Shown one piece after another: positions 19,757-51,441 of a stretch of 64,000 nt of DNA; the first letter of the stretch is position 1; each line of letters begins with the position of its first letter. The position numbers and the translations under genes were made by a program. The notes beneath the pieces were generated by a model that saw only the letters and a list, made by a program, of their open reading frames with translations, did no database searches and was not told the DNA's origin. The stretch is taken from IMG/VR virus record IMGVR_UViG_3300029286_000011. One strand, written 5' to 3'. This stretch comes from a virus (taxonomy: Duplodnaviria; Caudoviricetes).

Positions 19757-19779
19757 GGAATCCTCCGCAATATCGATGC

Positions 19780-21027: not shown

Positions 21028-21072
21028 CCTTGAAATCTCCGTAGGATGATGAATGTGCTGTCTCGCAAAGTG

Positions 21073-26581: not shown

Positions 26582-26592
26582 GTGTCACCTTT

Positions 26593-36048: not shown

Positions 36049-39000
36049 TCACTGGTCTATCTCAACTACAGCATTAGCAGGCAGATCGCCACGTAGGTAG
36101 GCTGCGATTGCGTCCTGTTGCGACCGCATGTAATGCACTCTGGACTTACCCTTGGCTCGGCTAGTGCCTGCATACAGGCCACCTAGAAATTCAGTTGTGG
36201 GTGCGTGTACGGGCGTCTTGAAATCTGCAGGGCTTAGCAAATTACGGCTGGGCAACATGCGTTCAACAGCGTCTCGCTTCGCCTCTTCTGACACCGGCAC
36301 ATGAAACTGCATGGCGTCACCGTCGAAGTCAGCATTGAAGCCTTTGACGATGAGCGGACTAATCTGCATCGTTTTACCTTTAGTCAGCTGTGGCCAGAAT
36401 GCCATGATGCCAAAGCGATGCAGCACCGGTGCGCGATTTATGATGACAGGCCGATTAGCCATTTCGGCCAGCATTTCTTTCTTGGCCGTGGGCGTTCGTT
36501 CCTTGGCCTGTCGTGCAGCTTCTACAATGTTAAGCCCCTTGCGGTGCAACCTACGCACAATGAAGTTCTTATAGATGTCCCAAGCTCGATCCTCAGGGAT
36601 GGCTACTTGATCCATATCCAAGTCAGGATTTGGACTAATGACAGCGCGACCTACAAGATCCACGGTGGTGCTTATGAGTCGGCGCTGTACAGTGTTGCCC
36701 GAGAAGAACGGTTTGCCGTTCCTCCGTACATAGACAATGCCATTAGGCACACTGACACAGTGAACCTGCCCAACATAATTCACAACCTTGTGACTTTTCT
36801 TACCTTCAGCAACGACAAACTTGCTGTCGGAAAGATTTATTCGGCAAAGTGGCTGACAGACCTCGTCTCGCGCCGGCATCCAACGAAGACGAGCAGTCAC
36901 ACCCAGCTTGCACGCGATTTCCTGTATATCGCCGGCAAGAGCCTCGCTGATCGTATGCGCATTCTGATGACGGGACAACAACTGGCCACAATTCTTGTGC
37001 GTTACGCCTCCACCGTTTTGCCTTGGACTGTATCGTCGCGTTCCATCTCCGTCGAGATAAGCAAGAAAGAACGCTTTCAAAAAAGGTGCATCCCAGTCAC
37101 GAATCTTAGCTGACAACTTTTTGGTTTTTGAGCCAGTTCGAACATTCGTTGTCAGCCACTTCGCCAGGTCTTTCGACCGGATTGACCATTGCCACACCCA
37201 AGTCTTGCCCTTACTACTTGCACGAAAGTATTTACCAACAGAAAACTTGATGCCAAGCGATTGTACAAGTCGAGCTATTTCCTTGCACTTCACCTCATGC
37301 TTGACTGCTTGACACAGTTGTATGCAGTCACGTTTACGATCGCCTAGCCAACCCTCTGCTGCCCACCAGCCGACAAATGCCGCAAAGTCTTGTAGCCTGC
37401 ATGATTTGCTCAAGAAACTAGGACGACGACGATGACCACGCCACGTCGAGGCAGCTGTACGAAACCATTTGCGGTTGCCGTTGGCGGCAGTCATATACGC
37501 ACGCTCAATTTGCCAGCCAGCCTCCATGTCATCGGCGCTATCCACATCTCCGCGACGATAACGTATCCAATTACGGTGATTAGGCGTTACGACAGAATCC
37601 AAGCCGCGAGAGGTACCAAACCAGAACAACTCACCATCATAGTCCCAGTGGAATACTCCTTTCGTCATCTGCCATTCAAACGCGCCTGTGTCCGGGTTCA
37701 ATGTTCCTACCTGGGTATCGTCAGTAAGCTCCGGGAATTTCACCCAGCCGTCTTTTGTCAAAATTTCTGTATCGTCGTCATAGCAGCCAAACTTTGGACT
37801 TGAGCCAAACACACGGGACAATATGCCCTTCACTCGTTTCTGTTGCAGCTTGGGGTGAACAGGGTCGCCAAGACCTGTGATAGCCTTGAACGTGTTGTAC
37901 ACAGCTAACCGCTCATCACCGACGTCTGACACTTTGCCTTGAAGCTCTTTCAGATTATCAACAGCGTCGAAGGCATCTTTGTACAAATAGTTGACGTCTG
38001 ACACAAGCGGTAGATTGGAGTCCTGCATCACACTGATCGGACGAAACATAGGCGGCAAAACAGGTATCTTGGATATCATCCAATCACCTGGATGTATGCC
38101 GAGCTCCTTGGCCGACTTCAAATATCCGAGTTTACGGATCGCTGTGTCTCTAGCAGTCTTCTTGCTGCCGTGTATCTGCGCTCGTGCTAACTCAATCTCG
38201 TGATCCAGATTGAGCTTCTGCAATGCCGTCTGAATAGCCTTAGGTCCCTTGCCAGTCGGCAACGAGTCCTTACCAGCCAAAACATCAAGGAACTTTTGTT
38301 CCGTGAGTCCGAGAATACGGCGTATTGGCTCCTCCATCACTGGCGAAGGCATTACCTCAGGCAACCGTATAAAAGACCAACGATTGCCGTCAGTACCACC
38401 TGTCAACGACGGGTCAAACAAACCGCCAGGAACCGGCTTTAGCGCACCTTCACGATCAAGCTGCATAGTCTTGGCCGTCTTCAACTCACGGGTGCCGGCC
38501 ATTACGTCTACATCTTTATCGGTCAGAGCCATTAGCTGCAGCTTAGACCCTGTGGGCACAACATTGATTCCAGCGCCCTTCAGCTCACTGACAAACTTTT
38601 GCCACACCATCGGCACCTTAGTAGCCGTGGGTGTGTGACCTTGCATGAGCTTGAGCCAGAAGTCTTCGTTACGTTGTCCACGAATCTGCATAGCGTCTTG
38701 CAGCACACCAACAGACCCGTGGCTCAACAGAGCACTGGTGTCCATGAGACTGATCCGCTTACTTCCAGTCTCCCCTCCTTTAGAGGGACTGCCTTCAGAT
38801 GTGTAGCCGCCAGTGCCTCGACCTTGGCTCTTAGACTCTGCAGTATGTGCAAGCTTCATGATGAAGCGATTGCCAACAAGCACGTCCTTGATCTTACGCC
38901 CCGTCTCAGGGTCGATGATGTCTTCGGTATCCTTCATACCGTGCTTGGCCAACTCGTCCATCGCGTACTTGACCATGTCCTGGTCTGTTTCAAAATCGAT

Positions 39001-42000
39001 GGGCTTATATGGCTTGCCGGTTATGGCAGCTATCTTGCCTAGCGCAGCCTCTACAACCTGCGCTGGATTTCCACGTGTAATCACGCCCAGAGGATTAGCC
39101 AACACTTCCAGCGGTCGTCCCTGGCTGTCATGCGGCATTTTCTCATCAGGGATGATTCCGGAGATTATGCCCTTATCGCCATATCTGCCACTGTTACCAC
39201 ACCATACTGGTTTGCCATTACGTCTAACATACAGTACATGATTTTTAGGCAGGCTCACACAGTACACCTGCCCATTAAAATGAACCCATTGCTCCTTCTG
39301 TCCTAACTGCTTACTACAATGGCCGTGATTGATCTCAGGCTGGTTTTTGCTGCGATAAATTGACACCCAATAGCGTTTGCGGAACCTGTATCGACGACCC
39401 TTTATGACACCAATTCTACTAGGTTGAAAATCAATATTGGCACTCATACCTAGATGCAAGGCTAATCGTTGAACATCATCTGCCAGTCGTCGAGACGTGG
39501 TGTGATACGCATGTGATGTACCTGTGCAAGAACCATCACCCCACATAAGCCAATCGTACAGTACTTGAAGCGTAGCCCTATCCCAGTTGAAAACGCTTAA
39601 TGGGATAAACTTTTGCCAACACTTACCAAACTGACGTAGATGCTGATACCACTGCAGACTGTAAACGCGAATCTTAGTCTTTCGGCTGTGTTCGCTAAAT
39701 TTGACACCCATCTGGCGTAACGCACATAGCAGATGTTTGCGACCTGGTTGTTTAATTTGCGTGATATCGAAGCCACAACCATGCCGGCCAGAATTGAATG
39801 TATTGCCTTCAGACAGGAACGCGCCGAGAACAGCTGCGTAAGTCTTCACTGGTACCTTCAATGCCGGGATGACCCTTTTACCGCGACCGCTCTGACCTGC
39901 TTTAACAGTTACAGCCGCTAGCGTCACGAATTTAGGACTACGCCCGATCCATTCGCCGTCACGCTTCAACCGATATCGCTTACCGTACAGATGTCTAGCT
40001 TCAATTAACGAATAATGCTTACTGTTTCTCGGTTGTGCGTAAAGACTGTGATTGTCAGTGACACACAAACTGACCTGCGTTGTTTCCAAGGAGTACATAG
40101 GCCCGGTGTACGAAAACTGCTGTATTGCCGCCGGTAACAAATACTCTATCTGATTATCGGCTGTAAGTGACGCACAGCGATCACGCGGGGTTATCGACGA
40201 AATCAATTTCCACCCTGTGGCTGTTAGGCACTCCGTATCAGGGCTGTAGCACAGCTTGTCCCCGACTTCGGTGCTAGCTATCGATTTGACAACTACAGTG
40301 ACACCCTTGTCGTTTCGTACGACGTCAGTCACCTCGCCAGGAGAATGGTGGTTCCACAACACACTGGCGTCAGTGAAAGACTTGGCACCCTTCTTATGCA
40401 CACGACCATAACTCGGCGTGCGCTCTTGTGCCGCAACTATCAGCGGGTCATCTTCGCTGACGATAGAGCCGGGTCGAACAATGCCGTCGTCATCCAGTTG
40501 GCCAAGTTGCTTGCGGTCGAACTTCGTTGCAAACAACGAGACAAATGCCTTCTTCCCGACCTTATGAGAATCGCTGGGCTCAAACTTGTGTTGATACATA
40601 TGTTCGCTGTCGAGACGCTTGGCAAAGCTCTCTGACACAACATAAGCATCTTCGAAGTTCAATCCACCGAATGGTACGTAGGCAATACGGGCGTTCTTAC
40701 CTAACGCCAAAGCACCTGTCTTGTCCGTGGAATTTGTACGTACTAGCAAATCACCCGGCTTGAATACATCACCAGGCTTAACCGTGGCAAACTGGTGATG
40801 ATAGCTCTTACGATTGTTCGGATAATTGTTGTACAGCGGGAAGGTCTGCTTATTGCCATCTTCGTACTGCACTGTCAGTGCGTCAGCTGTGGCGTCTAGC
40901 ACACGACCAGCTTTGTCAGAGAATACCGTACCGAGCTTACGAGCATACTCTTCCTCGTAGCTAGCGCCCGGCTTATCCGGCATACCTGACTGAACCCACG
41001 GAGCCTCAGGATCAACAAGATTGAGGGCCTGCGTAATGAACCTGGAGCCCATGACAGTGCGCTGGCCCTTAACCATGCTCTTGAGCGGCACTAGATTGCC
41101 TAATGGCGACATGGCTTGTTCGAAATGCGGTACGACATAGTCGACATCGCTCTTCTTCACCCACTGCATACGCCCGTTACGCATGGCAACGACGCGAGGC
41201 AGCTGCGTGTTCATCTCACCTGGAAATGCTATCGTGGAGTTGGCAATGTCTTGTGGCGATCTGTAGACCTGTTTGCCAGTCTTGATGTCGACGAATGGTG
41301 AGTACAGCTTGCCGCCAGGGCCTTTGCGCGAAGCTCGTGCAAAGTACACATCCACACCGCTACGATAAGACTCAGGAGTACGCAGCGGATCGACAAAGTT
41401 CAGATGCGACGGCTGCACCGTTCGGGCATCTTCTGGCACAGCGTCCATGCTGGACAGACCACCCTCACCCATACGAGTAAGCTTCCATAGCTTATCGTAT
41501 ATCTCGGCGGAATTAACTTCTTCCAGGTTCTGACCAAGACCAGAGTTCAGCAGCGCTGATTCAAGCTGCTTTCCCAAGGCATTAGCAGGAATAGCCGACA
41601 AGCCATTCTTGAATGTGGCCCTGTACAGCAGCTTTCTACGCATACCGCCGTAGTCTTTGGCAAGACGCTCAGCAAAGATGTCTTCAGGAGAATGCACAGT
41701 CTGGAAGGCTAGATGATCACGGTCATCCACTTCCTGCTTACCTTGTGAGATAGCAAGCAGTTTCTTCGTAGTATCCAAAATGGCCGGCAATGTCAGTCGA
41801 TCATACGGCTTTCCGAGCGTAGCTTTTGTGACCTCAGGATCAAGCCGCATGTCTGATAGCGACTTGGCTAGCATCTCACGACGCATGTTGTCGTCGGCAT
41901 CAGCTGGAACCCTAGACACAAAACGCTGTACCAGTTTGTGAAGCGCTACCGTCTTATCCGCACCGCTGTTGGCAGCGAGAATATCAGGGCCCCACGCTTC

Positions 42001-42642
42001 ATTAAGCATCTTGTCGTCGGCACCCATGGCCCGTAGCAACGGAATCATGGGAATCTTGGCCTGTCCTACGCGGGCGTAAAAGACACCCTTGGCAGGATCA
42101 AGAAAGTAACGATGTGCACGACCTTCACCCGGCAACACGTTAACGTGTGCTTCTATCTCGTTGTTCTCTTTGACACGAGTGAATATACCGGGTCGCAACC
42201 GAAGCTGGCTGGTAAGCGTGTACTCGTTACCACGGAAGATGAATGTGCCTCGTTGTGTCATGTGAGGCACACGAGCTATAGTCATCTTTCGTTGTTCGAC
42301 AACTTGATTGTCGGCGGCATTGATGAGTCGCCACGTTCCTCGCAAACGCCTATCCAACGTACCGTTGGTAAGTACGGCCTTCTTCTCTTCAGCCGGCGTA
42401 CGTTCCTCGGGGTCAGCGTAATGTACGTCAGCCAGCTGCAAGCTGTAGCGATTGTTAGACAGCGGCTTGAGCTTCTGTGCCGCATCCAAGACATTGGCAT
42501 AAATGCCACGCCGTGTCTGCGCAGGATTACCAAACTCAGCCAGCGTAGTCTCATCAGGCTCTACAAATGCCGGTGGAGCAATCGGCGGCAATTCGTCGGC
42601 CTGCTTGTCGCACAGAAAAGCATCGTCACTGAAGACACTCAT
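36049..42642 (-). CDS. rpoBC: Phage RNA polymerase beta fused to beta' N-half (catalytic NADFDGD), with 2 inteins
   Basis: GTFIFRGNEY..SQL; GDKL/SGRYGDKG; NPLGVITR; GLFDP; PVLPPMFRP; GRAVI; NRAPVLHR; NADFDGD. Confidence 0.92.
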   Translation of the reverse strand: MSVFSDDAFLCDKQADELPPIAPPAFVEPDETTLAEFGNPAQTRRGIYANVLDAAQKLKPLSNNRYSLQLADVHYADPEERTPAEEKKAVLTNGTLDRRLRGTWRLINAADNQVVEQRKMTIARVPHMTQRGTFIFRGNEYTLTSQLRLRPGIFTRVKENNEIEAHVNVLPGEGRAHRYFLDPAKGVFYARVGQAKIPMIPLLRAMGADDKMLNEAWGPDILAANSGADKTVALHKLVQRFVSRVPADADDNMRREMLAKSLSDMRLDPEVTKATLGKPYDRLTLPAILDTTKKLLAISQGKQEVDDRDHLAFQTVHSPEDIFAERLAKDYGGMRRKLLYRATFKNGLSAIPANALGKQLESALLNSGLGQNLEEVNSAEIYDKLWKLTRMGEGGLSSMDAVPEDARTVQPSHLNFVDPLRTPESYRSGVDVYFARASRKGPGGKLYSPFVDIKTGKQVYRSPQDIANSTIAFPGEMNTQLPRVVAMRNGRMQWVKKSDVDYVVPHFEQAMSPLGNLVPLKSMVKGQRTVMGSRFITQALNLVDPEAPWVQSGMPDKPGASYEEEYARKLGTVFSDKAGRVLDATADALTVQYEDGNKQTFPLYNNYPNNRKSYHHQFATVKPGDVFKPGDLLVRTNSTDKTGALALGKNARIAYVPFGGLNFEDAYVVSESFAKRLDSEHMYQHKFEPSDSHKVGKKAFVSLFATKFDRKQLGQLDDDGIVRPGSIVSEDDPLIVAAQERTPSYGRVHKKGAKSFTDASVLWNHHSPGEVTDVVRNDKGVTVVVKSIASTEVGDKLCYSPDTECLTATGWKLISSITPRDRCASLTADNQIEYLLPAAIQQFSYTGPMYSLETTQVSLCVTDNHSLYAQPRNSKHYSLIEARHLYGKRYRLKRDGEWIGRSPKFVTLAAVTVKAGQSGRGKRVIPALKVPVKTYAAVLGAFLSEGNTFNSGRHGCGFDITQIKQPGRKHLLCALRQMGVKFSEHSRKTKIRVYSLQWYQHLRQFGKCWQKFIPLSVFNWDRATLQVLYDWLMWGDGSCTGTSHAYHTTSRRLADDVQRLALHLGMSANIDFQPSRIGVIKGRRYRFRKRYWVSIYRSKNQPEINHGHCSKQLGQKEQWVHFNGQVYCVSLPKNHVLYVRRNGKPVWCGNSGRYGDKGIISGIIPDEKMPHDSQGRPLEVLANPLGVITRGNPAQVVEAALGKIAAITGKPYKPIDFETDQDMVKYAMDELAKHGMKDTEDIIDPETGRKIKDVLVGNRFIMKLAHTAESKSQGRGTGGYTSEGSPSKGGETGSKRISLMDTSALLSHGSVGVLQDAMQIRGQRNEDFWLKLMQGHTPTATKVPMVWQKFVSELKGAGINVVPTGSKLQLMALTDKDVDVMAGTRELKTAKTMQLDREGALKPVPGGLFDPSLTGGTDGNRWSFIRLPEVMPSPVMEEPIRRILGLTEQKFLDVLAGKDSLPTGKGPKAIQTALQKLNLDHEIELARAQIHGSKKTARDTAIRKLGYLKSAKELGIHPGDWMISKIPVLPPMFRPISVMQDSNLPLVSDVNYLYKDAFDAVDNLKELQGKVSDVGDERLAVYNTFKAITGLGDPVHPKLQQKRVKGILSRVFGSSPKFGCYDDDTEILTKDGWVKFPELTDDTQVGTLNPDTGAFEWQMTKGVFHWDYDGELFWFGTSRGLDSVVTPNHRNWIRYRRGDVDSADDMEAGWQIERAYMTAANGNRKWFRTAASTWRGHRRRPSFLSKSCRLQDFAAFVGWWAAEGWLGDRKRDCIQLCQAVKHEVKCKEIARLVQSLGIKFSVGKYFRASSKGKTWVWQWSIRSKDLAKWLTTNVRTGSKTKKLSAKIRDWDAPFLKAFFLAYLDGDGTRRYSPRQNGGGVTHKNCGQLLSRHQNAHTISEALAGDIQEIACKLGVTARLRWMPARDEVCQPLCRINLSDSKFVVAEGKKSHKVVNYVGQVHCVSVPNGIVYVRRNGKPFFSGNTVQRRLISTTVDLVGRAVISPNPDLDMDQVAIPEDRAWDIYKNFIVRRLHRKGLNIVEAARQAKERTPTAKKEMLAEMANRPVIINRAPVLHRFGIMAFWPQLTKGKTMQISPLIVKGFNADFDGDAMQFHVPVSEEAKRDAVERMLPSRNLLSPADFKTPVHAPTTEFLGGLYAGTSRAKGKSRVHYMRSQQDAIAAYLRGDLPANAVVEIDQ
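36694..37785 (-). mobile_element. Intein D (364 aa) with LAGLIDADG endonuclease, in the beta' N-half
   Basis: FG|CYDDDT ... KPFFSGN|T; motifs VGWWAAEG and AYLDGDG. Confidence 0.9.
39193..40251 (-). mobile_element. Intein C (353 aa) with LAGLIDADG endonuclease, in the beta GDK(L)|SGR motif
   Basis: KL|CYSPDT ... KPVWCGN|S; motifs LGAFLSEG and LMWGDG. Confidence 0.9.
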
Positions 42643-43466: not shown

Positions 43467-43860
43467 GTTTCGCTCCTGTTGTCGCCGGATTCAATTCTGG
43501 TGGTAAACGATGTTTGGCCAATTCTCGTTGAGGTACAGACCACACAACGTAAACCAGTATCGTCACACTACCATCCGGCCGTTTGACCCACTTTTCCTGC
43601 ATCCTGTAGATCACGTACCACTGATTCACAGAACGGTCTACGATTTCACGCAACTTATCACGCTGCGCAGGGTCGCCCATGTCGAAGATATCGATATCTG
43701 CATCATGGACTACCTCCGTGTACTTTTGGTATTCGTCGTCACGCAGTAGAACTGGTGCGCCCCTAAACGGCAGACCATCAACAGCCGTTCTACCAAAATG
43801 CAAAGGTCCTCTTTCATTGTCCGACGAAGTGTTCTTGTCACGATACTTGAGAAATGACAT
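43459..43860 (-). CDS. Hypothetical protein (133 aa)
   Basis: Overlapping-gene operon. Confidence 0.65.
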   Translation of the reverse strand: MSFLKYRDKNTSSDNERGPLHFGRTAVDGLPFRGAPVLLRDDEYQKYTEVVHDADIDIFDMGDPAQRDKLREIVDRSVNQWYVIYRMQEKWVKRPDGSVTILVYVVWSVPQRELAKHRLPPELNPATTGAKHG

Positions 43861-44795
43861 CAGGTAACTGTCCGGCCACGCTGTGGCGTTGTTTGTTTAC
43901 GCTGCTGTGCCTGTCTCCGTTGGCTCGCTTGTGCAGCTGCAATTCGAAGTTCTTCGATCCGTCGTCGAACACGGACGTCTTCCAAATCTTCGTCGCCAAG
44001 ATTCGTAAACTTGGCCAAGCCATAACCGCCAAGAGCACCAGCGCTTAACGGGGCGGCAAAAGCACTCACCAAACCCAAGGAGCCAAGCGTCTTGATTGCC
44101 GATGAAGACAAGTCTAGGCCAGTGCCAATAACCTTGTCTGCAGTGCCCTTTAGAAAGTCGTAGCCGGGTATCCATTCGGATATGTCAGCCTGCTTATTCA
44201 CGCGCTGCTGTTCGGCCGATTCCTTTTCCTTGAGGTACTTGGAGTTGACCACCCAAGGTAGCGCAGCGTTAACAGTGGCCATATCAACTAGCGCCGGCAT
44301 ATTGCGACGGATATTGGGGTGATGTAGAAAGTCGGCACCCCGCGCACCCTCGGGCAAGTACGTCATGGCATCTTCCAATCGATTGTTCCAGTGATTGGAA
44401 AGATAGCGACCCAGCAAACCTCCGCCAACACCGCCTACTCCAGCGCCGATGCCAGTGCCCAGGCCAGGATTATCCACCGCATAGCCTGACCCGGAGCCGA
44501 TGAGCCCGCCCCCCAAGGCCCCTATCAGGCTCCCCAGCACGGTGTCGATGTTGGGATTACGCATGTACTGCGCAATTGGCGCCGCAGAGCTGGTTCGTGG
44601 GAACCACTGTGACTTGCCAGCATCAATGTCACGACGATCACGCTCGGTGAGTTCGCGAGGAGCAGCCTGCTTTTCCAAGCTTACTTGCCCCAGGAGCAGT
44701 GCGTGCTTGACGTATGCGGTTGTCTCGTCGATAGTCATGCCGAGACTAGCGCAATGCGCAAGCATGGCTACTTTGAATGCTTCCTTGTCGGTCAT
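43860..44795 (-). CDS. Glycine-zipper protein
   Basis: LGSLIGALGGGLIG and GLGTGIGAGVGGVGGGLLG; EKQAA and NKQAD. Confidence 0.7.
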   Translation of the reverse strand: MTDKEAFKVAMLAHCASLGMTIDETTAYVKHALLLGQVSLEKQAAPRELTERDRRDIDAGKSQWFPRTSSAAPIAQYMRNPNIDTVLGSLIGALGGGLIGSGSGYAVDNPGLGTGIGAGVGGVGGGLLGRYLSNHWNNRLEDAMTYLPEGARGADFLHHPNIRRNMPALVDMATVNAALPWVVNSKYLKEKESAEQQRVNKQADISEWIPGYDFLKGTADKVIGTGLDLSSSAIKTLGSLGLVSAFAAPLSAGALGGYGLAKFTNLGDEDLEDVRVRRRIEELRIAAAQASQRRQAQQRKQTTPQRGRTVT

Positions 44796-45249: not shown

Positions 45250-45774
45250 TCAAAAATATTCCCTAAGAAGTCCGTGCCGTCCTGTGGCGGCTGCAGTGGG
45301 TGGCATGTCAACCGGCGTAGGCTGAAATTGAATATTCCAGCACCAATCCGGTAGTGTCACACCCTGATCATCCGCCATCTGACGTAGTTGCAAAAGTCTA
45401 TGTGGCGTTAACGGGTTCTGATGCTGCCTAATGTACGTTGTAAGCAGCTCATCTGCAGTAGTCTTTGACAACACATTCTGATGCGACAGCGTAAGTAGCA
45501 GGCTGACTAGAGCGTTAGTCGGTTGCGTTACATACACTTGCTGTGCCGCATCCCAGCGAACAGTGTACGGCCCAAGACGAATAACCTGATCCGGCGACGG
45601 GCCTAACGTTTGTTCAGTGGGTTGTTGTCGAATTAGCGCCGTAGTGATACGCACAGAACGTCTACGCGCCACAGACTCTCCGTTGGTTCTCCCCCACCAA
45701 TCTGAAACCAATTGCCGATAACGCCTATCGGATGATTCCAGTTGCGGTGATATTCCGAAGAGACTGTTATTCAT
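45250..45774 (-). CDS. Hypothetical protein (174 aa)
   Basis: ATGA overlap with the upstream gene. Confidence 0.6.
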   Translation of the reverse strand: MNNSLFGISPQLESSDRRYRQLVSDWWGRTNGESVARRRSVRITTALIRQQPTEQTLGPSPDQVIRLGPYTVRWDAAQQVYVTQPTNALVSLLLTLSHQNVLSKTTADELLTTYIRQHQNPLTPHRLLQLRQMADDQGVTLPDWCWNIQFQPTPVDMPPTAAATGRHGLLREYF

Positions 45775-46907
45775 CGCGTAAACGCCATCGGAGTCAGGGC
45801 ATTTATAACGCCAGCCACAACGCCCGTGGTCTTCAGTATGTCCTGTGCTTTCTGCGGTAGTCCGAATATTGATCCTAGCGCTTTACCAAATAGAGCACCG
45901 GCTACATAGCCAGTACCCATGCCAGCCGTCAAACGACCTAGGTCGCCCATTGTCACCATTGACGACCGCTGAGGGTCTTGCTCCCTGGATTCGGCTAAGA
46001 ATGCCGCTGTATCCACTAAGGACATAGCTGCATTTCTCGTTGCCGGATTAACAGCGAACGCTACGTTAGGATCATAATACAATGTATCACGAAGCGCGGG
46101 AACCGGGATAGGCGGTGGAAACATGCCACCGGCCCCTGTATCGTCATTGTCCCAGGCAGCGGCCTTAGTATCTGGAAGATCTTCTTCAAACTCCCAGGTA
46201 GGATCAATTCTTGCCGGTTTGTCAGGAACGATGGGCCAGCCGGATGTAAGCGGCTTATTGTGCTTGCTGTTCACCCAGCCCCACACAGCGCCAGGAGCGG
46301 CACCAGTCAGTCCACCCAGAACAGCGCCTGTGGCGGCTAGTCGCTTCTTATTCCAGCCAGGGAGAACGGAGCCCATCAAATAGCCGCCGCCATAGCCTAG
46401 ACCGGCACCAAGCAAACCTGACGTTAGCATGGCTGTCAGAGGACTTGGATCGCCTGGTACGAAGTCAGCGATACGACCCGGCAGATGATTGGTAAGCTGC
46501 CCTAGCGTGTTGACAAACGTGCTGTACGCCGTTTTTTCGCTGAGGGCTATGTTGATGGCCGGTCGCAGATGGATCTGAAAACTATCCTGCGGAAGCGAAG
46601 AACTATCGCCGTGGATAGTAAGGACATCGGTCAGTCCATGATCTTCAGCCAGCTTGTACAGCACATTGTGCCACTTTGCCTGCACATCAACAGGCATGTC
46701 GACGTGGTGCAGCAGAAGTGCTTCCTTTTCGGGACTTACCGATACCGACCTGTAACCAGCAACGTCTAAGTCGGCTACATCCTGCTGCAGCTGCTCGGCC
46801 AGCTTATTGTATTGACGCCAGTTCTCCTCGGCGGCTTTTACAATACCCTGTGCGGCCTCGTATTCAGACAGACCCTGACACAGGTAGAACAAGTTTGCGT
46901 AGTTCAT
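45771..46907 (-). CDS. Glycine-zipper protein
   Basis: SGLLGAGLGYGGGY and GAVLGGLTGAAPG; KAAE, KTAY and KAAA. Confidence 0.7.
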   Translation of the reverse strand: MNYANLFYLCQGLSEYEAAQGIVKAAEENWRQYNKLAEQLQQDVADLDVAGYRSVSVSPEKEALLLHHVDMPVDVQAKWHNVLYKLAEDHGLTDVLTIHGDSSSLPQDSFQIHLRPAINIALSEKTAYSTFVNTLGQLTNHLPGRIADFVPGDPSPLTAMLTSGLLGAGLGYGGGYLMGSVLPGWNKKRLAATGAVLGGLTGAAPGAVWGWVNSKHNKPLTSGWPIVPDKPARIDPTWEFEEDLPDTKAAAWDNDDTGAGGMFPPPIPVPALRDTLYYDPNVAFAVNPATRNAAMSLVDTAAFLAESREQDPQRSSMVTMGDLGRLTAGMGTGYVAGALFGKALGSIFGLPQKAQDILKTTGVVAGVINALTPMAFTR

Positions 46908-47692: not shown

Positions 47693-50497
47693 TTAGCCTT
47701 CGTGAAAAGCAATTAGGGCGGGGGCACGTAAGGCCCCTGACGGTAGTTGCTGCTGGGCTCTTACCTTGGCAACTCGACCAAGATACAGATCAGAGGCATT
47801 GAACAGATCCTTACGAAGATCGTCAGAAATGCCTGTGCCAACCTCGCCAACTTCCGGCCCGTCAGGTGTGAGTGAGTATCCGAACCCACCCGCACCGACG
47901 TTAGTGTACTTGCCCTTGCCTGGGAATATTCGTTTTACGTAGACATCATGGTCTTCCGTAAACTTGCTTTTCATCGGCTTGCCTGTGGGCGGATGTATGA
48001 CAACACCCTCACTGGTCAGCGGATGCTTACCAGCTCTGATGGTTTCCCACAGGGCCTTAGCTGACTCAGCATCTGTAGCCTCATCGGCCACATGAAATTG
48101 CTCAGGCAGATGCTTGGCGACATCACGTAGCATCTGCATTCGCTCGCTGTAAGGCACATCATCAGGGTGAATAGGACGGCTTCCCAGCTGCTGCACATCG
48201 TACAGCATGCTACGAAGCTTGATGTTCCTTTCCTTCTGTGCTTTCAATGAATTAGCAAGTGTGGCATTCAGAATACCACCTAACTCTTGGGGCGGGATGA
48301 CACTATCTCTCTCAACGCCGTCTCCACTGTGTACGGCAGCTTGATCAGCAGCCCCATCGCCAGCTGGCGAAGCTCCGATTCGCTGAGCGAGGCTATCACC
48401 GCCTGTTCCTTCAGCCTCAGCGTTGGACGACACTGCCCGTTCTTGCAATTTCCGCAAGCCATATAACTCCCCCTTCAAAATAGACCCAACCAATTCTTTA
48501 GGTATGTTCAGGCCCTGATGCTTTTTACCAAACATCCGTTCGGTATGAACAATTGGACGGCCAGTGGTCTTGCTGGTTCTGTACGACAGAACTTCCACAC
48601 CATCCCGCACCAGTCTGATAAGAGAAGACGCACCATCTAGCTTAGGCTGGACACTACTGCCCGGCTGCAGCTTATCAAGCACGTCGTTCATCTGCTCTGC
48701 CGGTATACGCTTGTAGTGCACCTTCTCGTACGGCAGCGGCTGCTTTGGCGTTGTATTCAGTAGCAGCCAGTCTTTCTCACGGCCACGCCCTGTGCGTATC
48801 ATTGTGAAACGCTCAGGATAGCGTTCGTCAGCTGTACTGAAGTCGAGACGACCCGGCTGCACACCTGTGAGCAGTATCTGTCCCTTGCGCTGCGTCTTTA
48901 CAGTGCCAGCGCCGTAGCCTTTTAAGGTGCCTTGGAAGTCTTTGTAGCCGTGGGCGTGTAAGGGCTGCTGTACGGCAAGATGCTTAGCGCCAGGAGCCGG
49001 TAGACCCTTTCTAGCGGCCCAGCTGTACAGACCCAGCGAAGGGCCGCCTATGCGTATATCCGAGTGCAGGCCAGCTCTCTGTGCGGCATGCTCTTGAACT
49101 ACGAAGTCAAACAGCTCACCAGGGGTAAGCTTTGACAGGTCACCAAAATTAGCCCTGTCAGGAATACCCATACCAGGAGCGGCAGTCTTCAGCCAGCTTG
49201 CGGCCTTTTCATCTAAGCCAATCTCGTCACCGTATAGAGTGACACCGTACAGCTCGCAACCAATTTTGGCTGAAAATTCGCTGTCGTCAGACTCAAAGAT
49301 GTAATTAGCGCTAATTACATCTTCTGCCTCTTTTGAGTCAGGCCATGGTTCGCCACATCGATTGCAACAGTCATCATCACCACGTTCCAAGAATGCATCG
49401 CAGTTCGGGCAGCATTCATCAGCAGCCTGTTTACCTAGCAGATGTCGAGCCATCTGCAGGACCTGCTCCTGGTCCGCAAGCGTATAGCCTCTGTTTTTGT
49501 AGGACGCTAGCGCACGTCTGTTAATCTGCCACAACTTTGGTAACGATAGTAACTCAGGTAGGGGCGCACGCAATCCCATAGCGATATTACGTCGCACAGC
49601 GCGCAAAGCCGACAACGATGGCCACGTATTAAGCAACATCGAGTTATCAGCTGGCACATCGTGCAACCCGCTATTCGAAAAGCCACTAACGACGACAGGC
49701 TGTGTTTGCTGAGCAAGCCATTGCTGATACTTGCTTGCAACACTTTTTTCAAACTCCTCTTCCTGGCCTGGTGCCCAGTTATAGTCGGTCAAATTGGCAC
49801 CTGCCGGAATACCCATGTCGCGCATCACTTCGCCTGAGAAGTCGTCCAGGTCTTTAGCTACAACACCCTGATGCTCGTCTGCGATCCGATTTAACGTTGT
49901 GGTCTTGCCGGCACCGGAGGCACCTGCGATACGAAGTATGGGTTTTTCAGCTGCGGCCTTACTGACTTCGTTCTCGTTCAATACGTTGGCTTTTCGTATG
50001 CCAATCGTGCAATGGAATTCAAACTCGCCGTCGTGTGGTTTGCTGGACAGTCCGTAAGACCGGCGCAACTGCTGCAGCTCAGGACTCTTTACCTCGATAA
50101 ACCATACCCTAGACACGCCTGACCATCCGTGCGGAACAACAGTCTTAACACGGCCTAGCGTGTATCGAAAGCTTCCACCACGTTCTGTGAGCTTATCGGG
50201 TCCACCGATCTTCTCGATGTCAGCCTTGGAGAATACGGATATGTGTGCTGTGAGCTTGCCGTTGTCATCAACAGGCAATTCGACGCCCGGTTCATCCAAG
50301 GCATCGAAGCATCCGCGCACAATGGCGTTTGGCACGGCTAGAAGGCCCCAACCAGACTGACTGACATACAGTCTTCCGGCCAAGGCATGCGCTGCCACAG
50401 GCTTAGCGGCCTCCTTCACGACACTGGCCACTATATCCTGATAAACCTGCTGCGAAATCTGCGGATAGACTAGACTCACAGCGCGCCTCTCAGTCAT
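47693..50497 (-). CDS. Multi-domain end-repair protein: 2H phosphoesterase + P-loop kinase + Zn ribbon + LigD 3'-phosphoesterase + ATP-dependent DNA ligase with OB domain
   Basis: HISV/HCTI; GASGAGKTT; CPNC/CNRC; FVVQEH..HSDIRI..SWA..YGAGTV; QPKLDG, GELY, LYDV, EGVVI, KSK; VGTG...LRAP. Confidence 0.85.
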   Translation of the reverse strand: MTERRAVSLVYPQISQQVYQDIVASVVKEAAKPVAAHALAGRLYVSQSGWGLLAVPNAIVRGCFDALDEPGVELPVDDNGKLTAHISVFSKADIEKIGGPDKLTERGGSFRYTLGRVKTVVPHGWSGVSRVWFIEVKSPELQQLRRSYGLSSKPHDGEFEFHCTIGIRKANVLNENEVSKAAAEKPILRIAGASGAGKTTTLNRIADEHQGVVAKDLDDFSGEVMRDMGIPAGANLTDYNWAPGQEEEFEKSVASKYQQWLAQQTQPVVVSGFSNSGLHDVPADNSMLLNTWPSLSALRAVRRNIAMGLRAPLPELLSLPKLWQINRRALASYKNRGYTLADQEQVLQMARHLLGKQAADECCPNCDAFLERGDDDCCNRCGEPWPDSKEAEDVISANYIFESDDSEFSAKIGCELYGVTLYGDEIGLDEKAASWLKTAAPGMGIPDRANFGDLSKLTPGELFDFVVQEHAAQRAGLHSDIRIGGPSLGLYSWAARKGLPAPGAKHLAVQQPLHAHGYKDFQGTLKGYGAGTVKTQRKGQILLTGVQPGRLDFSTADERYPERFTMIRTGRGREKDWLLLNTTPKQPLPYEKVHYKRIPAEQMNDVLDKLQPGSSVQPKLDGASSLIRLVRDGVEVLSYRTSKTTGRPIVHTERMFGKKHQGLNIPKELVGSILKGELYGLRKLQERAVSSNAEAEGTGGDSLAQRIGASPAGDGAADQAAVHSGDGVERDSVIPPQELGGILNATLANSLKAQKERNIKLRSMLYDVQQLGSRPIHPDDVPYSERMQMLRDVAKHLPEQFHVADEATDAESAKALWETIRAGKHPLTSEGVVIHPPTGKPMKSKFTEDHDVYVKRIFPGKGKYTNVGAGGFGYSLTPDGPEVGEVGTGISDDLRKDLFNASDLYLGRVAKVRAQQQLPSGALRAPALIAFHEG
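49296..49323. repeat. Perfect 28-bp palindrome inside the CDS (copy 4), encoding DVISANYI
   Basis: AAGATGTAATTAGCGCTAATTACATCTT. Confidence 0.95.
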
Positions 50498-51098
50498 TCA
50501 GGCTTAATCGCGATAATGCGCGCTGCTGAGAACTACTCGGAGGCGCAGGATTTATAGGATGGCTGTGGCTATCGCCAGGCTGCACAGGCATGGAATCAAT
50601 AACCGGTGCAGGTAACGGCGCAGGCTTGGCGGCATCTGATCTGTAAAAGAAGGCAACAGAGTACCAACCAGTGCCATCGCGTATGGCCCGTACTGTTGCA
50701 TCGATACCAACTAACTCACCACTCTTAGTCCTAGCCGTACATGTAATGTGTTTGACCTTCTTGTATGAATCCATATCTTGCACACGTTCGATGGCTTGTC
50801 GATGCTTACAAGCCACATTCGGATCCATCATGAAGTCAGGTGCAGATCCAATAACTTCCTTAGCTGACCAGCCAAATAGATCTTCTGCGCCTTTATTCCA
50901 TTCGACGATCAACCCATCAGGATCAAGCATCGCGAATGGATATGTGCTGTCGTACAGCATCTGAAAGTATGCTGACGATCTAGTCTGCGCAGATGTGACT
51001 ATGAACTGTTGCGTAACGCCGTAGGCGATCAATATGCAACATAGCAGCCACGAGATCACGGAAGACACTATTACCCCGTAACTACGTGCCCTAGTCAT
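50490..51098 (-). CDS. Membrane-anchored PAS-domain protein without an output domain (start revised to 51098)
   Basis: TM helix, then FAMLDPDGLIVEWNKGAEDLFGWSAKEVIG...TKSGELVGIDATV. Confidence 0.8.
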   Translation of the reverse strand: MTRARSYGVIVSSVISWLLCCILIAYGVTQQFIVTSAQTRSSAYFQMLYDSTYPFAMLDPDGLIVEWNKGAEDLFGWSAKEVIGSAPDFMMDPNVACKHRQAIERVQDMDSYKKVKHITCTARTKSGELVGIDATVRAIRDGTGWYSVAFFYRSDAAKPAPLPAPVIDSMPVQPGDSHSHPINPAPPSSSQQRALSRLSLND

Positions 51099-51441
51099 CG
51101 GCATCCTCCTTGACTTTTTTACGTTTCCATCCGCCTCGCGGCGCAATGCTTATGTCTATTCCACCGTTCTGAATGACACTGAGCACAAAGTCTAGTATCG
51201 GTGTACCGCCCAGGCTAAGCAATAGTAACAGCCCGAGCAGTAATTGAACATTGGACGTAAGGTATTCCCGCCCAACAAGCCCGCAAGCCAACCCTGATAA
51301 GCCTGAGTTCAGTAACACGCTAACCAGTGTGCGGATAGAGAGCGACCTTTTAGATCGCAAAACAGAAGCTAACCCGGCAAAAGCAGTGACACCGAATATT
51401 AAGGCTAGTAGTTGGAACTGTGTCAGCGATTCCAGCTGCAT
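51091..51441 (-). CDS. Holin-like 3-TM membrane protein
   Basis: 116 aa, three hydrophobic helices and a basic C-terminal tail; GGAGG SD. Confidence 0.45.
   Translation of the reverse strand: MQLESLTQFQLLALIFGVTAFAGLASVLRSKRSLSIRTLVSVLLNSGLSGLACGLVGREYLTSNVQLLLGLLLLLSLGGTPILDFVLSVIQNGGIDISIAPRGGWKRKKVKEDADD

What the first reader, a model, noticed from the sequence alone, without database searches (positions are those of the whole stretch)
47693..50497. All-in-one heal-and-seal polyprotein: 2H phosphoesterase, kinase, LigD 3'-phosphoesterase and ATP-dependent ligase
Seen: four recognisable catalytic modules plus a Zn ribbon in one ORF, each boundary marked by a KxA site, with a ~50-aa low-complexity insert inside the ligase core. 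Established: sealing damaged ends needs removal of 2',3'-cyclic or 3'-phosphate, 5' phosphorylation and ligation. T4 Pnkp+Rnl1, yeast Trl1 (ligase-kinase-2H CPDase) and LigD (PE+ligase+polymerase) each cover part of this; I do not know this exact four-way fusion. Inference: a virion-packaged kit, possibly cut into separate enzymes in the head, that repairs or circularises the incoming genome or repairs RNA cut by host defence nucleases.
Basis: partly seen in the sequence, partly recalled or inferred. Interest (0 to 1): 0.85.

Follow-up and report, generated by a model that had tools for sequence, protein, structure and literature searches.

The report
Phage end-repair ligase polyprotein
An uncultured lake-water giant phage encodes one 934-residue protein that joins a DNA-type ligase to three end-cleaning enzymes, with a Lys-x-Ala signature between the parts that looks like a protease cutting code; it is probably a repair kit that is cut apart, and a new variant of known multi-enzyme repair and 'polyvalent' phage proteins.

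Summary
Window 47693-50497 (minus strand) is one 934-aa ORF. It contains a 2H-SAK phosphoesterase, a P-loop kinase, a 4-Cys Zn ribbon, a LigD-type 3'-phosphoesterase (PE) and an ATP-dependent DNA-ligase-fold domain. All catalytic residues are present.

The PE-ligase half is a conserved ~450-aa core found in about 95 protein clusters and 58 IMG/VR contigs of ~200-kb uncultured phages. It occurs alone or fused to changing partners (2H, kinases, InPase, NUDIX, GNAT, SNF2 helicase, HAD, peptidases). This is the pattern of 'polyvalent' phage proteins. The exact five-part fusion is seen only in this phage.

K-x-A is not enriched by count in this protein (6 vs 5.3 expected), but it flanks modules across the family. 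Inside the core it is the most depleted of 217 X-x-Y pairs (33 vs 209). Outside the core it is the most enriched. In this genome it marks N-terminal leaders of a head-gene block. I read this as proteolytic processing, probably by the prohead protease. Packaging and substrate are inferred, not shown.

An all-in-one heal-and-seal protein is already known in fungi (Swiss Army Knife proteins), so this is a new variant. The scan noted ligase+PE modules in virion-linked proteins of three other genomes (e1-5344458, e1-5381334, e1-5366512).

The parts
47693..50497 (-). Whole ORF, 934 aa (the stop codon is 47693-47695)
   Evidence: relatives at 40-55% identity
50408..50497 (-). N-terminal leader, residues 1-30: a predicted helix (16-26) ending in K28-E-A30
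   Evidence: Model. A leader plus K-x-A lies about 8 residues before the 2H domain in 18 of the 23 aligned rows; two of those rows are kinase fragments without a 2H domain.
49982..50386 (-). 2H phosphoesterase domain (2H-SAK), residues 38-172. Motifs H85-x-S87 and H162-x-T164.
   Evidence: Pfam PF22547 above cut-off. H85 and H162 are invariant in alignment A1. pLDDT is above 94. Foldseek gives weak 2H-superfamily hits. Atlas gives TM 0.74 to a 2H-SAK cluster.
49952..49960 (-). K180-A-A182 site directly after the 2H domain (S-K-x-A)
   Evidence: K180 is invariant; S179 and A182 are at least 90% conserved. The motif is present in 17 of the 23 aligned rows, two of which are kinase fragments without a 2H domain.
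49433..49942 (-). P-loop kinase module, residues 186-355. Walker A G192-x4-G-K198-T; Asp216 and Asp218; lid R299-x3-R303.
   Evidence: 59 relatives. Conserved columns in alignment A4. Pfam AAA_18 32/34, AAA_33 25/34, Zeta_toxin 9/34. The fold is not confidently modelled.
49424..49432 (-). K356-Q-A358 site between the kinase and the Zn ribbon
   Evidence: Relatives P0036 and P0022 end their kinase module with K-Q-A.
49334..49423 (-). Zn ribbon, residues 359-388 (C363, C366, C379, C382)
   Evidence: Weak DZR_2 hit. The same ribbon, also flanked by K-x-A, occurs in P0008 and P0006.
49325..49333 (-). K389-E-A391 site after the Zn ribbon
49181..49324 (-). Acidic spacer, residues 392-439, ending in K431-A-A and K437-T-A. 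It contains the 24-bp palindrome at 49298-49321.
48743..49114 (-). LigD-type 3'-phosphoesterase domain, residues 462-585. Catalytic set H470, H478, D480, R482, H514, Y518.
   Evidence: Pfam PF13298 above cut-off. Residue-by-residue alignment to PDB 3n9b. Each catalytic residue is conserved in 82-87 of 87 relatives.
47933..48700 (-). Ligase nucleotidyltransferase domain, residues ~600-855. Motif I K619-x-D-G, R640, E677, E830-G, K843-x-K845.
   Evidence: phrog_114. These residues are invariant or nearly so in 87 sequences. Model pLDDT 91.5. Foldseek matches T4 DNA ligase, archaeal ligases and the LigD ligase domain at E 1e-12 to 1e-9.
48293..48448 (-). Low-complexity, Lys-poor insert in the ligase (about residues 681-736)
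   Evidence: Disordered in the model. The site is hypervariable. Inserts at this site have 2.1% Lys against 7.5% in the core as a whole.
47696..47932 (-). Ligase OB domain, residues 856-934
   Evidence: Weak PF14743 hit. Full-length structural matches to NTase+OB DNA ligases.

Best explanation
The gene encodes a modular 'polyvalent' polyprotein.

Constant part: a LigD-like unit in which a 3'-phosphoesterase is fused to an ATP-dependent ligase of the DNA-ligase fold (NTase+OB). This unit is a core gene of a large group of ~200-kb uncultured phages.

Add-ons in this phage: a 2H cyclic phosphodiesterase, a P-loop kinase of the nucleotide/polynucleotide-kinase class, and a small Zn ribbon.

Processing: each module is bounded by K-x-A(A/S/E/D). 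I infer that a phage protease cuts there, most likely the prohead protease (candidate gene at 21073-22596). The products would be a ~17-kDa 2H enzyme, a ~19-kDa kinase, a ~3.6-kDa Zn ribbon and a ~54-kDa PE-ligase. The PE-ligase stays in one piece because K-x-A is excluded from it.

Chemistry: together the modules supply every step needed to mend a break with 'dirty' ends. The 2H domain opens 2',3'-cyclic phosphate. The PE removes 3'-phosphate or 3'-ribonucleotides. The kinase phosphorylates the 5'-OH. The ligase seals.

Shown here: domain identities, catalytic residues, family distribution and the motif statistics.

Inferred: cleavage, residence in the head and delivery with the DNA, and the substrate. 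I lean towards broken or RNA-tipped phage DNA at or soon after entry, and possibly also replication nicks, because this is the only ligase detected in the genome.
For: Domains and residues.

Structure: the PE-ligase half folds as one confident unit (pLDDT 91.5, pTM 0.85). It matches only DNA ligases among the top 50 PDB hits, and matches LigD-type PE-LIG proteins in AFDB.

Family: 95 clusters and 58 IMG/VR contigs, many of 150-226 kb. Partners vary: 2H-SAK, InPase, SNF2, NUDIX, GNAT, C39 peptidase, His-phosphatase, HD and HAD. InPase, NUDIX and GNAT are signature domains of polyvalent proteins predicted to be packaged (PMC5512222).

K-x-A placement:
- It lies 3-6 residues before the PE start (G-I-P) in 52 of 60 relatives with an N-terminal extension.
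- It lies just after the ligase end in 47 of 62 relatives with a C-terminal extension.
- It flanks the 2H domain on both sides.
- It separates modules in unrelated architectures of the same phage group: P0105, P0097, P0098, P0100, P0125, P0126.

K-x-A avoidance:
- Core: 33 observed vs 209 expected, the lowest of 217 X-x-Y pairs. Outside the core: 379 vs 241, the highest of 198 pairs.
- R-x-A in the same core is at 1.46 times expectation.
- Stand-alone PE-ligases avoid the motif equally (4 vs 20.4).
- Disordered loops inside the core swap Lys for Arg.
- RNA polymerase from the same phages is not depleted (109 vs 100.5).

This genome:
- K-x-A-rich ORFs cluster at 17-29 kb and 44-47 kb of the window.
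- 13 of 18 ORFs in 17-51 kb carry K-x-A within residues 4-48, against 15 of 158 elsewhere (p 1.3e-8).
- The 507-aa ORF at 21073-22596 resembles S78/S77 prohead proteases at lead level only. It is present in 24 of 24 genomes that carry the PE-ligase.

Precedent: in giant phage SPN3US, head-packaged ejection proteins are cut by the prohead protease (PMC10052503 and PMC7411985, abstracts).
Against: - No direct evidence of cleavage or of presence in virions. There is no cultured relative (no tblastn match in 50,697 phage records).
- The candidate protease is not confirmed. Pfam S77 and S78 find nothing in the genome, and a profile search of PDB sequences finds nothing.
- The gene lies ~18 kb from the K-x-A-rich head block. 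Its immediate neighbours (a PAS protein, an RmlD-like epimerase, a GT-D-like protein) are not structural.
- It is the only ligase detected in this genome and in most complete relatives. That also fits an ordinary replication role.
- Stand-alone PE-ligases keep R/K-x-A just 4-6 residues from their N-terminus, so part of the motif's conservation could be structural.
- The kinase fold was not modelled confidently, and its substrate is unknown.
Confidence: 0.55

Rival explanations
1. An ordinary cytoplasmic replication and repair ligase that works as one uncut multidomain enzyme. On this reading, K-x-A is only a habit of Ala/Lys-rich helical linkers.
For: It is the sole ligase detected in this genome. 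It is the only recognisable DNA ligase in roughly 10 of 16 complete related genomes. It is a core gene with conserved position upstream of the RNA polymerase genes. By count alone, K-x-A in this protein is at chance level.
Against: Linker composition cannot explain the 6-fold avoidance of K-x-A inside the folded core while R-x-A is over-represented there. It cannot explain the Lys-to-Arg swap in internal disordered loops, or the same motif in N-terminal leaders of a head-gene block. Two complete relatives keep the PE-ligase alongside a NAD-dependent ligase, and four others carry a second ATP-dependent ligase, so it is not simply the replicative ligase everywhere.
Confidence: 0.2
2. A dedicated RNA (tRNA) repair enzyme of the Swiss-Army-Knife or Trl1 kind. 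It would reverse cuts made by host anticodon nucleases or other ribotoxins, and would act in the cytoplasm.
For: The 2H domain belongs to the 2H-SAK family, named after RNA-repair proteins. 2',3'-cyclic phosphate ends arise only in RNA. The 2H-kinase pairing recurs in three separate architectures: this protein, P0105 and P0094. Fungal SAK proteins combine 2H-SAK, an AAA_33 kinase, a phosphatase and an RNA ligase. Trl1 and T4 Pnkp do the same chemistry (PMC7145591, PMC3592404, abstracts).
Against: The sealing domain has the NTase+OB DNA-ligase fold. No RNA ligase appears among its top 50 structural matches. It is welded to a LigD-type PE, a DNA-repair module. Some relatives carry a separate RNA ligase as well. 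The constant core occurs without 2H or kinase in most relatives.
Confidence: 0.15
3. A cargo train of unrelated enzymes. Only the PE-ligase mends nucleic acid. The 2H domain would destroy host cyclic-nucleotide or 2'-5' oligonucleotide immune signals (as Acb1 does). The kinase would act on a nucleotide or another small molecule. The fusion would then serve co-delivery, not a pathway.
For: Partners of the core change freely and include typical signal-degrading domains: NUDIX, InPase, HD, His-phosphatase. Iyer et al. argue that 2H domains of polyvalent proteins act as RNases or oligoadenylate or cyclic-nucleotide phosphodiesterases and say they never saw them linked to RNA ligases (PMC5512222). 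Acb1 and poxvirus cGAMP phosphodiesterases appear among the weak structural and feature matches. The kinase family's nearest solved relatives by sequence profile are nucleoside and nucleotide kinases.
Against: The best family match is 2H-SAK, not Acb1. 2H and kinase travel together in three architectures, and in P0094 with a HAD phosphatase, which is the classic end-healing trio. The kinase has the Asp base and RxxxR lid spacing that I recall from T4 Pnk; this comparison rests on memory and was not tested against a T4 Pnk sequence.
Confidence: 0.25
4. K-x-A is not a cutting site but a lysine modification or tagging site. One candidate is the phage's own ubiquitin-like conjugation cassette; another is capsid cross-linking.
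For: The motif is centred on lysine, lies in flexible segments and is avoided in folded domains, as SUMO-type consensus sites are.
Against: An E1 (ThiF) gene is found in only 4 of 16 complete genomes that carry the PE-ligase, while the motif pattern runs across the whole family. The many sites in scaffold-like acidic proteins and in short N-terminal leaders fit scaffold degradation and propeptide removal better.
Confidence: 0.05

Closest known systems
Bacterial LigD, in particular PE-LIG arrangements as in Pseudomonas LigD (PDB 3n9b PE domain; Mycobacterium LigD ligase domain 6nhx and 1vs0)
   Same: A 3'-phosphoesterase with the same His/His/Asp/Arg/His/Tyr set, placed directly N-terminal to an ATP-dependent NTase+OB ligase.
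   Different: There is no polymerase domain and no Ku gene in the genome. Identity to cellular PE-LIG proteins is only ~17-21%. It is phage-encoded, flanked by K-x-A, and fused to changing partners.
[quoted passage not shown] Fungal members of 857-956 aa carry an RNA ligase (PF09414), PTP-SAK, AAA_33 and 2H-SAK.
   Same: One polypeptide with a 2H-SAK phosphoesterase, a P-loop kinase, a 3'-end phosphatase and a ligase.
   Different: Here the phosphatase is a LigD PE rather than PTP or HAD. The ligase is of the DNA-ligase type rather than PF09414. The protein is viral and apparently built to be cut apart. I could not read the original description.
Polyvalent proteins of phages and conjugative elements (Iyer et al. 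2017, PMC5512222)
   Same: Many unrelated enzyme domains sit in one phage polypeptide. The domain repertoire is shared (InPase, NUDIX, GNAT, 2H, helicases, peptidases). That paper also predicts packaging and release of domains by proteolysis.
   Different: That paper reports no ligase or PE module, and states that its 2H domains were never seen with RNA ligases. It proposes embedded peptidase domains as the processing agents, not a short linear motif.
Fungal and plant tRNA ligase Trl1, and T4 Pnkp with Rnl1/Rnl2
   Same: The same logic: cyclic phosphodiesterase or phosphatase, then 5' kinase, then ligase (PMC7145591 and PMC3592404, abstracts).
   Different: Those seal RNA with Rnl-type ligases that lack an OB domain. 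Domain order and families differ.
Head-packaged ejection proteins cut by the prohead protease in giant phages SPN3US and phiKZ; the P1 Dar proteins
   Same: Large sets of internal head proteins carry propeptides and are cut at a short motif by the prohead protease, then injected with the DNA (PMC10052503, PMC7411985, PMC5694885; P1 DdrB).
   Different: From memory, the motifs there end in Glu (A/S/G-x-E; T4 uses L/I-x-E). Here the motif is K-x-A. No ligase is known among those cargoes.

Membership tests
LigD 3'-phosphoesterase (PF13298) | Profile match above the curated cut-off | tested here: met
   33.1 bits against a cut-off of 31.1; PDB PE chains match at E 2e-9.
LigD 3'-phosphoesterase (PF13298) | Catalytic His, His, Asp, Arg, His, Tyr. 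The Pseudomonas LigD numbering (H42, H48, D50, R52, H84, Y88) is from memory. | tested here: met
   H470, H478, D480, R482, H514 and Y518 align to 3n9b and are kept in 82-87 of 87 relatives.
LigD 3'-phosphoesterase (PF13298) | Mn-dependent 3'-phosphatase and 3'-ribonuclease activity | not testable with these tools
   Needs an enzyme assay.
ATP-dependent DNA ligase (NTase+OB) | Motif I K-x-D-G and motifs III, IV and V | tested here: met
   K619, D621, G622, E677, E830, G831 and K843 are invariant in 87 of 87 sequences; K845 is kept in 86 of 87.
ATP-dependent DNA ligase (NTase+OB) | Pfam PF01068 match above cut-off | tested here: inconclusive
   This protein gives no PF01068 hit. Relatives reach 24-38 bits. 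phrog_114 matches at E 8e-19.
ATP-dependent DNA ligase (NTase+OB) | NTase plus OB fold | tested here: met
   Model pLDDT 91.5. Foldseek matches T4, archaeal, human, LigD, LigE and Chlorella virus DNA ligases at E 3e-12 to 6e-9.
2H phosphoesterase, 2H-SAK family (PF22547) | Profile match and two H-x-T/S motifs | tested here: met
   40.6 bits against a cut-off of 27. H85-x-S and H162-x-T are present, and both His are invariant in A1.
2H phosphoesterase, 2H-SAK family (PF22547) | 2H fold | tested here: met
   The domain has pLDDT above 94. Foldseek hits to Usb1, CPDase, LigT and Acb1 are weak (E 0.04-0.8). Atlas gives TM 0.74 to a 2H-SAK cluster.
Polynucleotide 5'-kinase (T4 Pnk, Trl1 kinase class) | P-loop, an Asp general base about 20 residues later, and an RxxxR lid | tested here: met
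   G-x4-G-K198-T; D216 and D218; R299 and R303, all conserved in A4. The comparison with T4 Pnk residues is from memory.
Polynucleotide 5'-kinase (T4 Pnk, Trl1 kinase class) | Membership of a polynucleotide-kinase family by profile or fold, and polynucleotide substrate | tested here: inconclusive
   Only generic P-loop kinase families match: AAA_18 32/34, AAA_33 25/34. The nearest solved sequences are nucleoside and nucleotide kinases. The fold was not modelled.
[quoted passage not shown] | 2H-SAK + P-loop kinase + PTP-SAK or HAD-SAK phosphatase + PF09414 RNA ligase in one chain | tested here: not met
   2H-SAK and a kinase are present. The phosphatase is a LigD PE, and the ligase is of the DNA-ligase type with no PF09414 hit. 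It works like a SAK protein but is not a member.
Bacterial NHEJ LigD system | Polymerase/primase domain and a Ku partner | tested here: not met
   No polymerase domain in the ORF. No Ku in the genome.
Polyvalent proteins (Iyer et al. 2017) | Several unrelated enzymatic domains in one phage polypeptide, with family-wide domain shuffling from the typical repertoire | tested here: met
   repertoire as described in PMC5512222.
Polyvalent proteins (Iyer et al. 2017) | Packaged in the virion and delivered to the host | not testable with these tools
   Only indirect evidence: K-x-A statistics and leader motifs shared with the head block.

The most novel reading that the evidence does not exclude
K-x-A is the cutting code of the prohead protease of a large, uncultured group of ~200-kb phages. 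These phages load their heads with K-x-A-delimited polyproteins. The constant cargo is an active PE-DNA ligase, which is injected with the genome to heal and reseal DNA (or RNA-tipped DNA) broken by host nucleases. This would be an 'injected repair' counter-defence with a new protease specificity. In this phage, a promoter-like palindrome inside the gene might additionally allow the PE-ligase to be made alone from Met443 for replication.
Probability: 0.35. Interest if true: 0.8.

Novelty: new variant of a known kind. Interest (0 to 1): 0.62.

Why it matters
If the reading is right, three things follow.

- It adds DNA end-healing and ligation to the list of activities that phages carry into the cell. 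That is a direct answer to host nucleases, and it differs from inhibitors or DNA modification.
- It gives a simple sequence rule: K-x-A flanks the modules and is avoided inside them. The rule could be used to predict the whole set of head-processed proteins in hundreds of uncultured giant phages. It could also be used to define module boundaries in polyvalent proteins, whose processing has so far been attributed to embedded peptidases.
- The compact ~54-kDa PE-ligase and its separate 2H and kinase partners are candidate tools for joining 'dirty' nucleic-acid ends.

Even if packaging proves wrong, the family is a widespread, undescribed LigD-like phage ligase.

Tried and rejected
- tblastn of the protein against 50,697 phage records: no match.
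- The NAR 2016 paper that named the Swiss Army Knife proteins could not be opened. The SAK architecture was taken from Pfam names and Atlas clusters instead.
- PF01068, the NAD-ligase family, the RNA-ligase family and Ku in this genome: no hits apart from the target itself through phrog_114.
- Pfam S77, S78 and Phage_capsid in this genome: no hits. PHROG and Pfam scans of the presumed head block: almost nothing. A profile of the 507-aa candidate protease against PDB sequences: nothing. Its protease identity therefore stays a lead.
- A trypsin-like protease, seen next to the gene in one relative, is present in only 1 of 25 genomes. Rejected as the general processing enzyme.
- Fusion of the family to the candidate protease or to other head-block proteins, suggested by note e1-5344458 for another genome: none among my 95 relatives.
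- The C-terminal add-on domains of relatives are not encoded elsewhere in this genome.
- Sigma-70 promoter and terminator scan around and inside the gene: not above shuffled expectation.
- Literature search for a K-x-A prohead-protease motif: nothing found.
- Expression: no RNA holder listed among public runs.
- Intein in the ligase insert: rejected. The insert is low-complexity and disordered, and lies at a hypervariable loop.

Full report
**What is there**

Window 47693-50497 holds a single 934-codon ORF on the minus strand. It lies in a long run of genes all on that strand in a ~185-210 kb lake-water phage genome. The ORF start overlaps the stop of a PAS-domain gene by 8 nt. Gene callers in the protein collection begin it six codons later.

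**Modules**

- **2H domain.** Pfam gives 2H-SAK at residues 80-171 (40.6 bits, cut-off 27). It has both H-x-S/T motifs (H85, H162), and both His are invariant in the 12-sequence alignment A1. It is modelled with pLDDT above 94. It gives weak but consistent 2H-superfamily fold matches and an Atlas TM of 0.74 to a 2H-SAK cluster.
- **PE domain.** Pfam gives LigD_N at residues 468-568 (33.1 bits, cut-off 31.1). It aligns to solved LigD PE domains at E 2e-9. The residues H470, H478, D480, R482, H514 and Y518 occupy the catalytic columns. They are kept in 82-87 of 87 relatives.
- **Ligase.** PHROGs gives an ATP-dependent DNA ligase over residues 604-933. The ligase has K619-x-D-G, E677, E830-G and K843-x-K845; all are invariant in 87 of 87 sequences except K845, which is kept in 86 of 87.
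- **PE-ligase structure.** The C-terminal half folds as one confident unit (pLDDT 91.5, pTM 0.85). All of its top 50 PDB matches are NTase+OB DNA ligases: T4, archaeal, human I/III/IV, Mycobacterium LigD, LigE and Chlorella virus. In AFDB it matches LigD-type PE-LIG proteins.
- **Zn ribbon.** Two CxxC pairs lie at residues 363-382. The same ribbon recurs in P0008 and P0006.
- **Kinase.** Residues ~186-355 give only sub-threshold P-loop hits in this protein. An exhaustive search found 59 relatives, many of them stand-alone proteins of 170-200 aa. The family conserves the Walker A motif, K-D-L-D-D-F (D216, D218) and an R-x3-R lid (R299, R303). It matches AAA_18 in 32 of 34 members and AAA_33 in 25 of 34. 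It is a P-loop kinase. That it acts on polynucleotide 5'-OH ends is an inference: the fold was not modelled and the nearest solved sequences are nucleoside and nucleotide kinases.
- **Ligase insert.** The reported low-complexity insert is real: 56 aa, disordered. It sits in a loop where 20 of 87 relatives carry 25-167 extra residues.

**The family**

The C-terminal PE-ligase (~450 aa) is the conserved part. 95 protein clusters match it at 31-59% identity. 58 IMG/VR contigs encode it, many of 150-226 kb and several complete with direct terminal repeats.

The core occurs in three forms.
- It occurs alone, at about 560 aa.
- It occurs with N- or C-terminal partners that change from phage to phage: 2H-SAK (~19 clusters), InPase (~15), SNF2 helicase (~13), other P-loop kinases, NUDIX, GNAT, C39/C70 peptidase, His-phosphatase, HD, HAD and inteins.
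- In one relative the PE-ligase stands alone, while a separate 1896-aa protein about 6 kb away carries 2H-SAK, the same kinase module, NUDIX and a His-phosphatase.

InPase, NUDIX and GNAT fusions are hallmarks of the 'polyvalent proteins' that Iyer et al. predict to be packaged and injected (PMC5512222).

The exact combination 2H + kinase + Zn ribbon + PE + ligase was found only in this phage's own cluster. Its pieces recur elsewhere:
- kinase-PE-ligase: P0022;
- SNF2-kinase-PE-ligase: P0036;
- Zn ribbon-PE-ligase: P0006 and P0008;
- 2H followed by this kinase: P0105.

Gene order is conserved. A PAS gene lies directly upstream in another contig. An RmlD-like epimerase lies upstream in another. 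The beta-beta' RNA polymerase gene lies within 10 kb downstream in 21 loci.

**The K-x-A signature**

In this protein alone the count is unremarkable: 6 observed against 5.3 expected. Comparison across relatives changes the picture.

- *Placement around the core.* K-x-A lies 3-6 residues before the G-I-P start of the PE domain in 52 of 60 relatives with an N-terminal extension. It lies just after the H-E-D-Y-P end of the ligase in 47 of 62 with a C-terminal extension. The surrounding linkers and partners are unrelated.
- *Placement around 2H.* K-x-A follows the 2H domain (invariant K180) and ends a ~15-35-aa helical leader before it.
- *Zn ribbon.* It brackets the ribbon in this protein and in P0008, and follows the ribbon directly in P0006.
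- *Other architectures.* It separates modules in unrelated architectures of the same phage group, including tandem kinase repeats.
- *Avoidance in the core.* Over 90 relatives, K-x-A occurs 33 times inside the core against 209 expected. That is the lowest ratio of all 217 X-x-Y pairs (the next is 0.34).
- *Enrichment outside the core.* Outside, it is the highest of 198 pairs (379 vs 241).
- *Internal control.* R-x-A in the same core is at 1.46 times expectation.
- *Other modules.* The 2H interior (3 vs 10.8) and the kinase interior (17 vs 34.6) are also depleted.
- *Stand-alone forms.* Stand-alone PE-ligases avoid the motif as strongly as fused ones do.
- *Disordered loops.* Loops inside the ligase hold 2.1% Lys against 7.5% overall, and are richer in Arg.
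- *Negative control.* RNA polymerase from the same phages shows no avoidance (109 vs 100.5).

In this genome, K-x-A-rich ORFs cluster at 17-29 kb and 44-47 kb of the window. 13 of 18 ORFs between 17 and 51 kb carry the motif within residues 4-48, against 15 of 158 elsewhere (p 1.3e-8; the region was chosen after seeing the data).

That block contains an acidic scaffold-like protein and a weak major-head-protein match. It also contains a 507-aa protein that resembles S78/S77 prohead proteases at lead level only. That protein is present in all 24 related genomes tested.

A motif that bounds modules, ends leaders, is frequent in scaffold-like proteins and is purged from folded cargo is what one expects of a head-maturation protease site. 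This is the situation in T4, phiKZ and SPN3US, where ejection proteins are cut by the prohead protease (PMC10052503, PMC7411985).

I tested two alternative agents.
- An E1 for the phage's ubiquitin-like system is present in only 4 of 16 complete genomes.
- A trypsin-like protease is present in only 1 of 25.

Neither can explain a family-wide pattern. I found no paper describing a K-x-A specificity.

**How it most likely works**

Shown: the protein contains intact active sites for four chemistries. PE and ligase form one conserved unit that never carries K-x-A between them.

Inferred: the chain is cut at K-x-A into five parts.
- a leader;
- a 2H enzyme;
- a kinase;
- a Zn-ribbon peptide with a spacer;
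- a ~54-kDa PE-ligase.

The cutting probably takes place in the prohead, and the parts are probably delivered with the DNA. The parts can convert 2',3'-cyclic phosphate, 3'-phosphate or 3'-ribonucleotide, and 5'-OH ends into ligatable ends and seal them.

The DNA-ligase fold and the LigD-type PE point to DNA or RNA-tipped DNA. The 2H-SAK domain and its recurring pairing with a kinase point to RNA-type ends. I cannot decide between these.

This is the only ligase detected in this genome and in most complete relatives. Two complete relatives also have a NAD ligase, four have a second ATP ligase and three have a separate RNA ligase. A replication role is therefore not excluded and may coexist with the delivery role.

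No Ku gene is present in this genome, and related genomes end in direct terminal repeats. Neither favours NHEJ-type or cohesive-end circularisation.

**A detail that may link the two roles**

The phage's dispersed 24-bp palindrome occurs 14 times in the genome. Usually it lies 10-53 nt upstream of a minus-strand start codon. Its only deeply internal copy lies in this gene's spacer, at 49298-49321. The next in-frame start codon is Met443, about 127 nt downstream and directly before G-I-P-D-R. That is where stand-alone PE-ligases of relatives begin. An internal transcript for the PE-ligase alone is possible but untested; no RNA data were available.

**Comparison with what is known**

The core works like LigD and resembles it without the polymerase and without Ku.

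The whole protein works like the 'Swiss Army Knife' repair proteins, which in fungi combine 2H-SAK, an AAA_33 kinase, a PTP phosphatase and an RNA ligase. It also works like Trl1 or T4 Pnkp plus Rnl. It uses different phosphatase and ligase families, so it is an analogue of these, not a member.

Its shuffling partners place the family among the polyvalent proteins of PMC5512222. That paper reports no ligase or PE modules, states that its 2H domains never accompany RNA ligases, and invokes embedded peptidases rather than a linear motif for processing.

Earlier notes of this scan describe ligase+PE modules in virion-linked proteins of three other genomes. They agree in theme. I did not test them, except to find no protease fusions in my own set.

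**Verdict**

It is a new variant of known kinds: a LigD-like phage ligase family of the polyvalent type, with a SAK-like module set. The proposed K-x-A processing code is the most original element and the easiest to test.

- Module identities: about 0.9 (kinase substrate apart).
- Cleavage at K-x-A: about 0.6.
- Head packaging: about 0.5.

Noticed in passing
window 49298-49321 (inside the ORF; encodes D-V-I-S-A-N-Y-I): A perfect 24-bp palindrome with core AATTAGCGCTAATT. The core occurs 14 times in the 185-kb genome. Ten copies lie 10-53 nt upstream of a minus-strand start codon. This is the only deeply internal copy. Met443 (ATG at 49169-49171) follows about 127 nt downstream, directly before G-I-P-D-R, where stand-alone PE-ligases of relatives begin. 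Separate expression of the PE-ligase from an internal start is possible.
   Followed up: partly
window 21073-22596 (-): A 507-aa protein with 16 K-x-A sites (3.8 expected). It resembles S78/S77 prohead proteases only at lead level (Atlas). It is conserved in 24 of 24 genomes that carry the PE-ligase. H62, H103 and S165 are invariant in 11 aligned sequences. In two relatives the gene is ~880 aa, probably because of an intein. It gives no Pfam or PDB sequence match.
   Followed up: partly
window 17167-29106 (-), 43860-44795 (-), 45771-46907 (-): Block of ORFs strongly enriched in K-x-A (for example 13 vs 4.9, 16 vs 3.8, 13 vs 3.5, 16 vs 5.1, 7 vs 1.8). It includes an acidic low-complexity scaffold-like protein (19780-21027) and glycine-zipper proteins. 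These are probably head-internal or scaffold proteins that are degraded or trimmed.
   Followed up: partly
window 36049-42642 (-) and homologues in 21 loci: The fused beta-beta'N RNA polymerase shows no avoidance of K-x-A (13 vs 12.5 here; 109 vs 100.5 across relatives). By this criterion it behaves unlike the PE-ligase, which argues against it being exposed to the same protease.
   Followed up: partly
window 50490-51146 (-): A PAS-domain protein whose stop overlaps the start of the ligase gene. A PAS gene sits in the same position in the 195-kb contig that encodes P0010 (L002 9039-10004).
   Followed up: no
proteins P0097 and P0098 (metagenomic); P0105 (1896 aa): The kinase module occurs as tandem repeats separated by K-x-A. 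In P0105 it follows a 2H-SAK domain exactly as it does here, but P0105 has NUDIX and His-phosphatase in place of the PE-ligase.
   Followed up: partly
C-termini of P0020, P0027, P0032, P0051, P0054, P0058, P0065 and others; internal in P0003-P0005, P0010, P0100: A recurring ~60-aa module of unknown function with the pattern S-D-x2-x-Y-x2-K-H...L-R-x-L...P-x2-F-x-D-S...G-[IV]-T-H-x-P-T-G-F-[KR]-[IF]-H-x-P. A second C-terminal ~90-aa module ends in D-P-N...D-R-x-L. Both are often preceded by K-x-A and both are absent from this genome. They might be anchoring or targeting modules.
   Followed up: no
genome 59509-60861 (+), about 42 kb before the window start: A plus-strand 450-aa ORF with 18 K-x-A sites against 3.7 expected, in a genome whose genes are almost all on the minus strand. 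It may be a real K-x-A-rich gene or a spurious antisense frame.
   Followed up: no
L002 14998-17893, and the contig encoding P0054: In relatives, the stretch between the PE-ligase gene and the RNA polymerase genes encodes assorted peptidases (M10, S8, C1, trypsin-like). No such peptidase was found in the same stretch here.
   Followed up: partly
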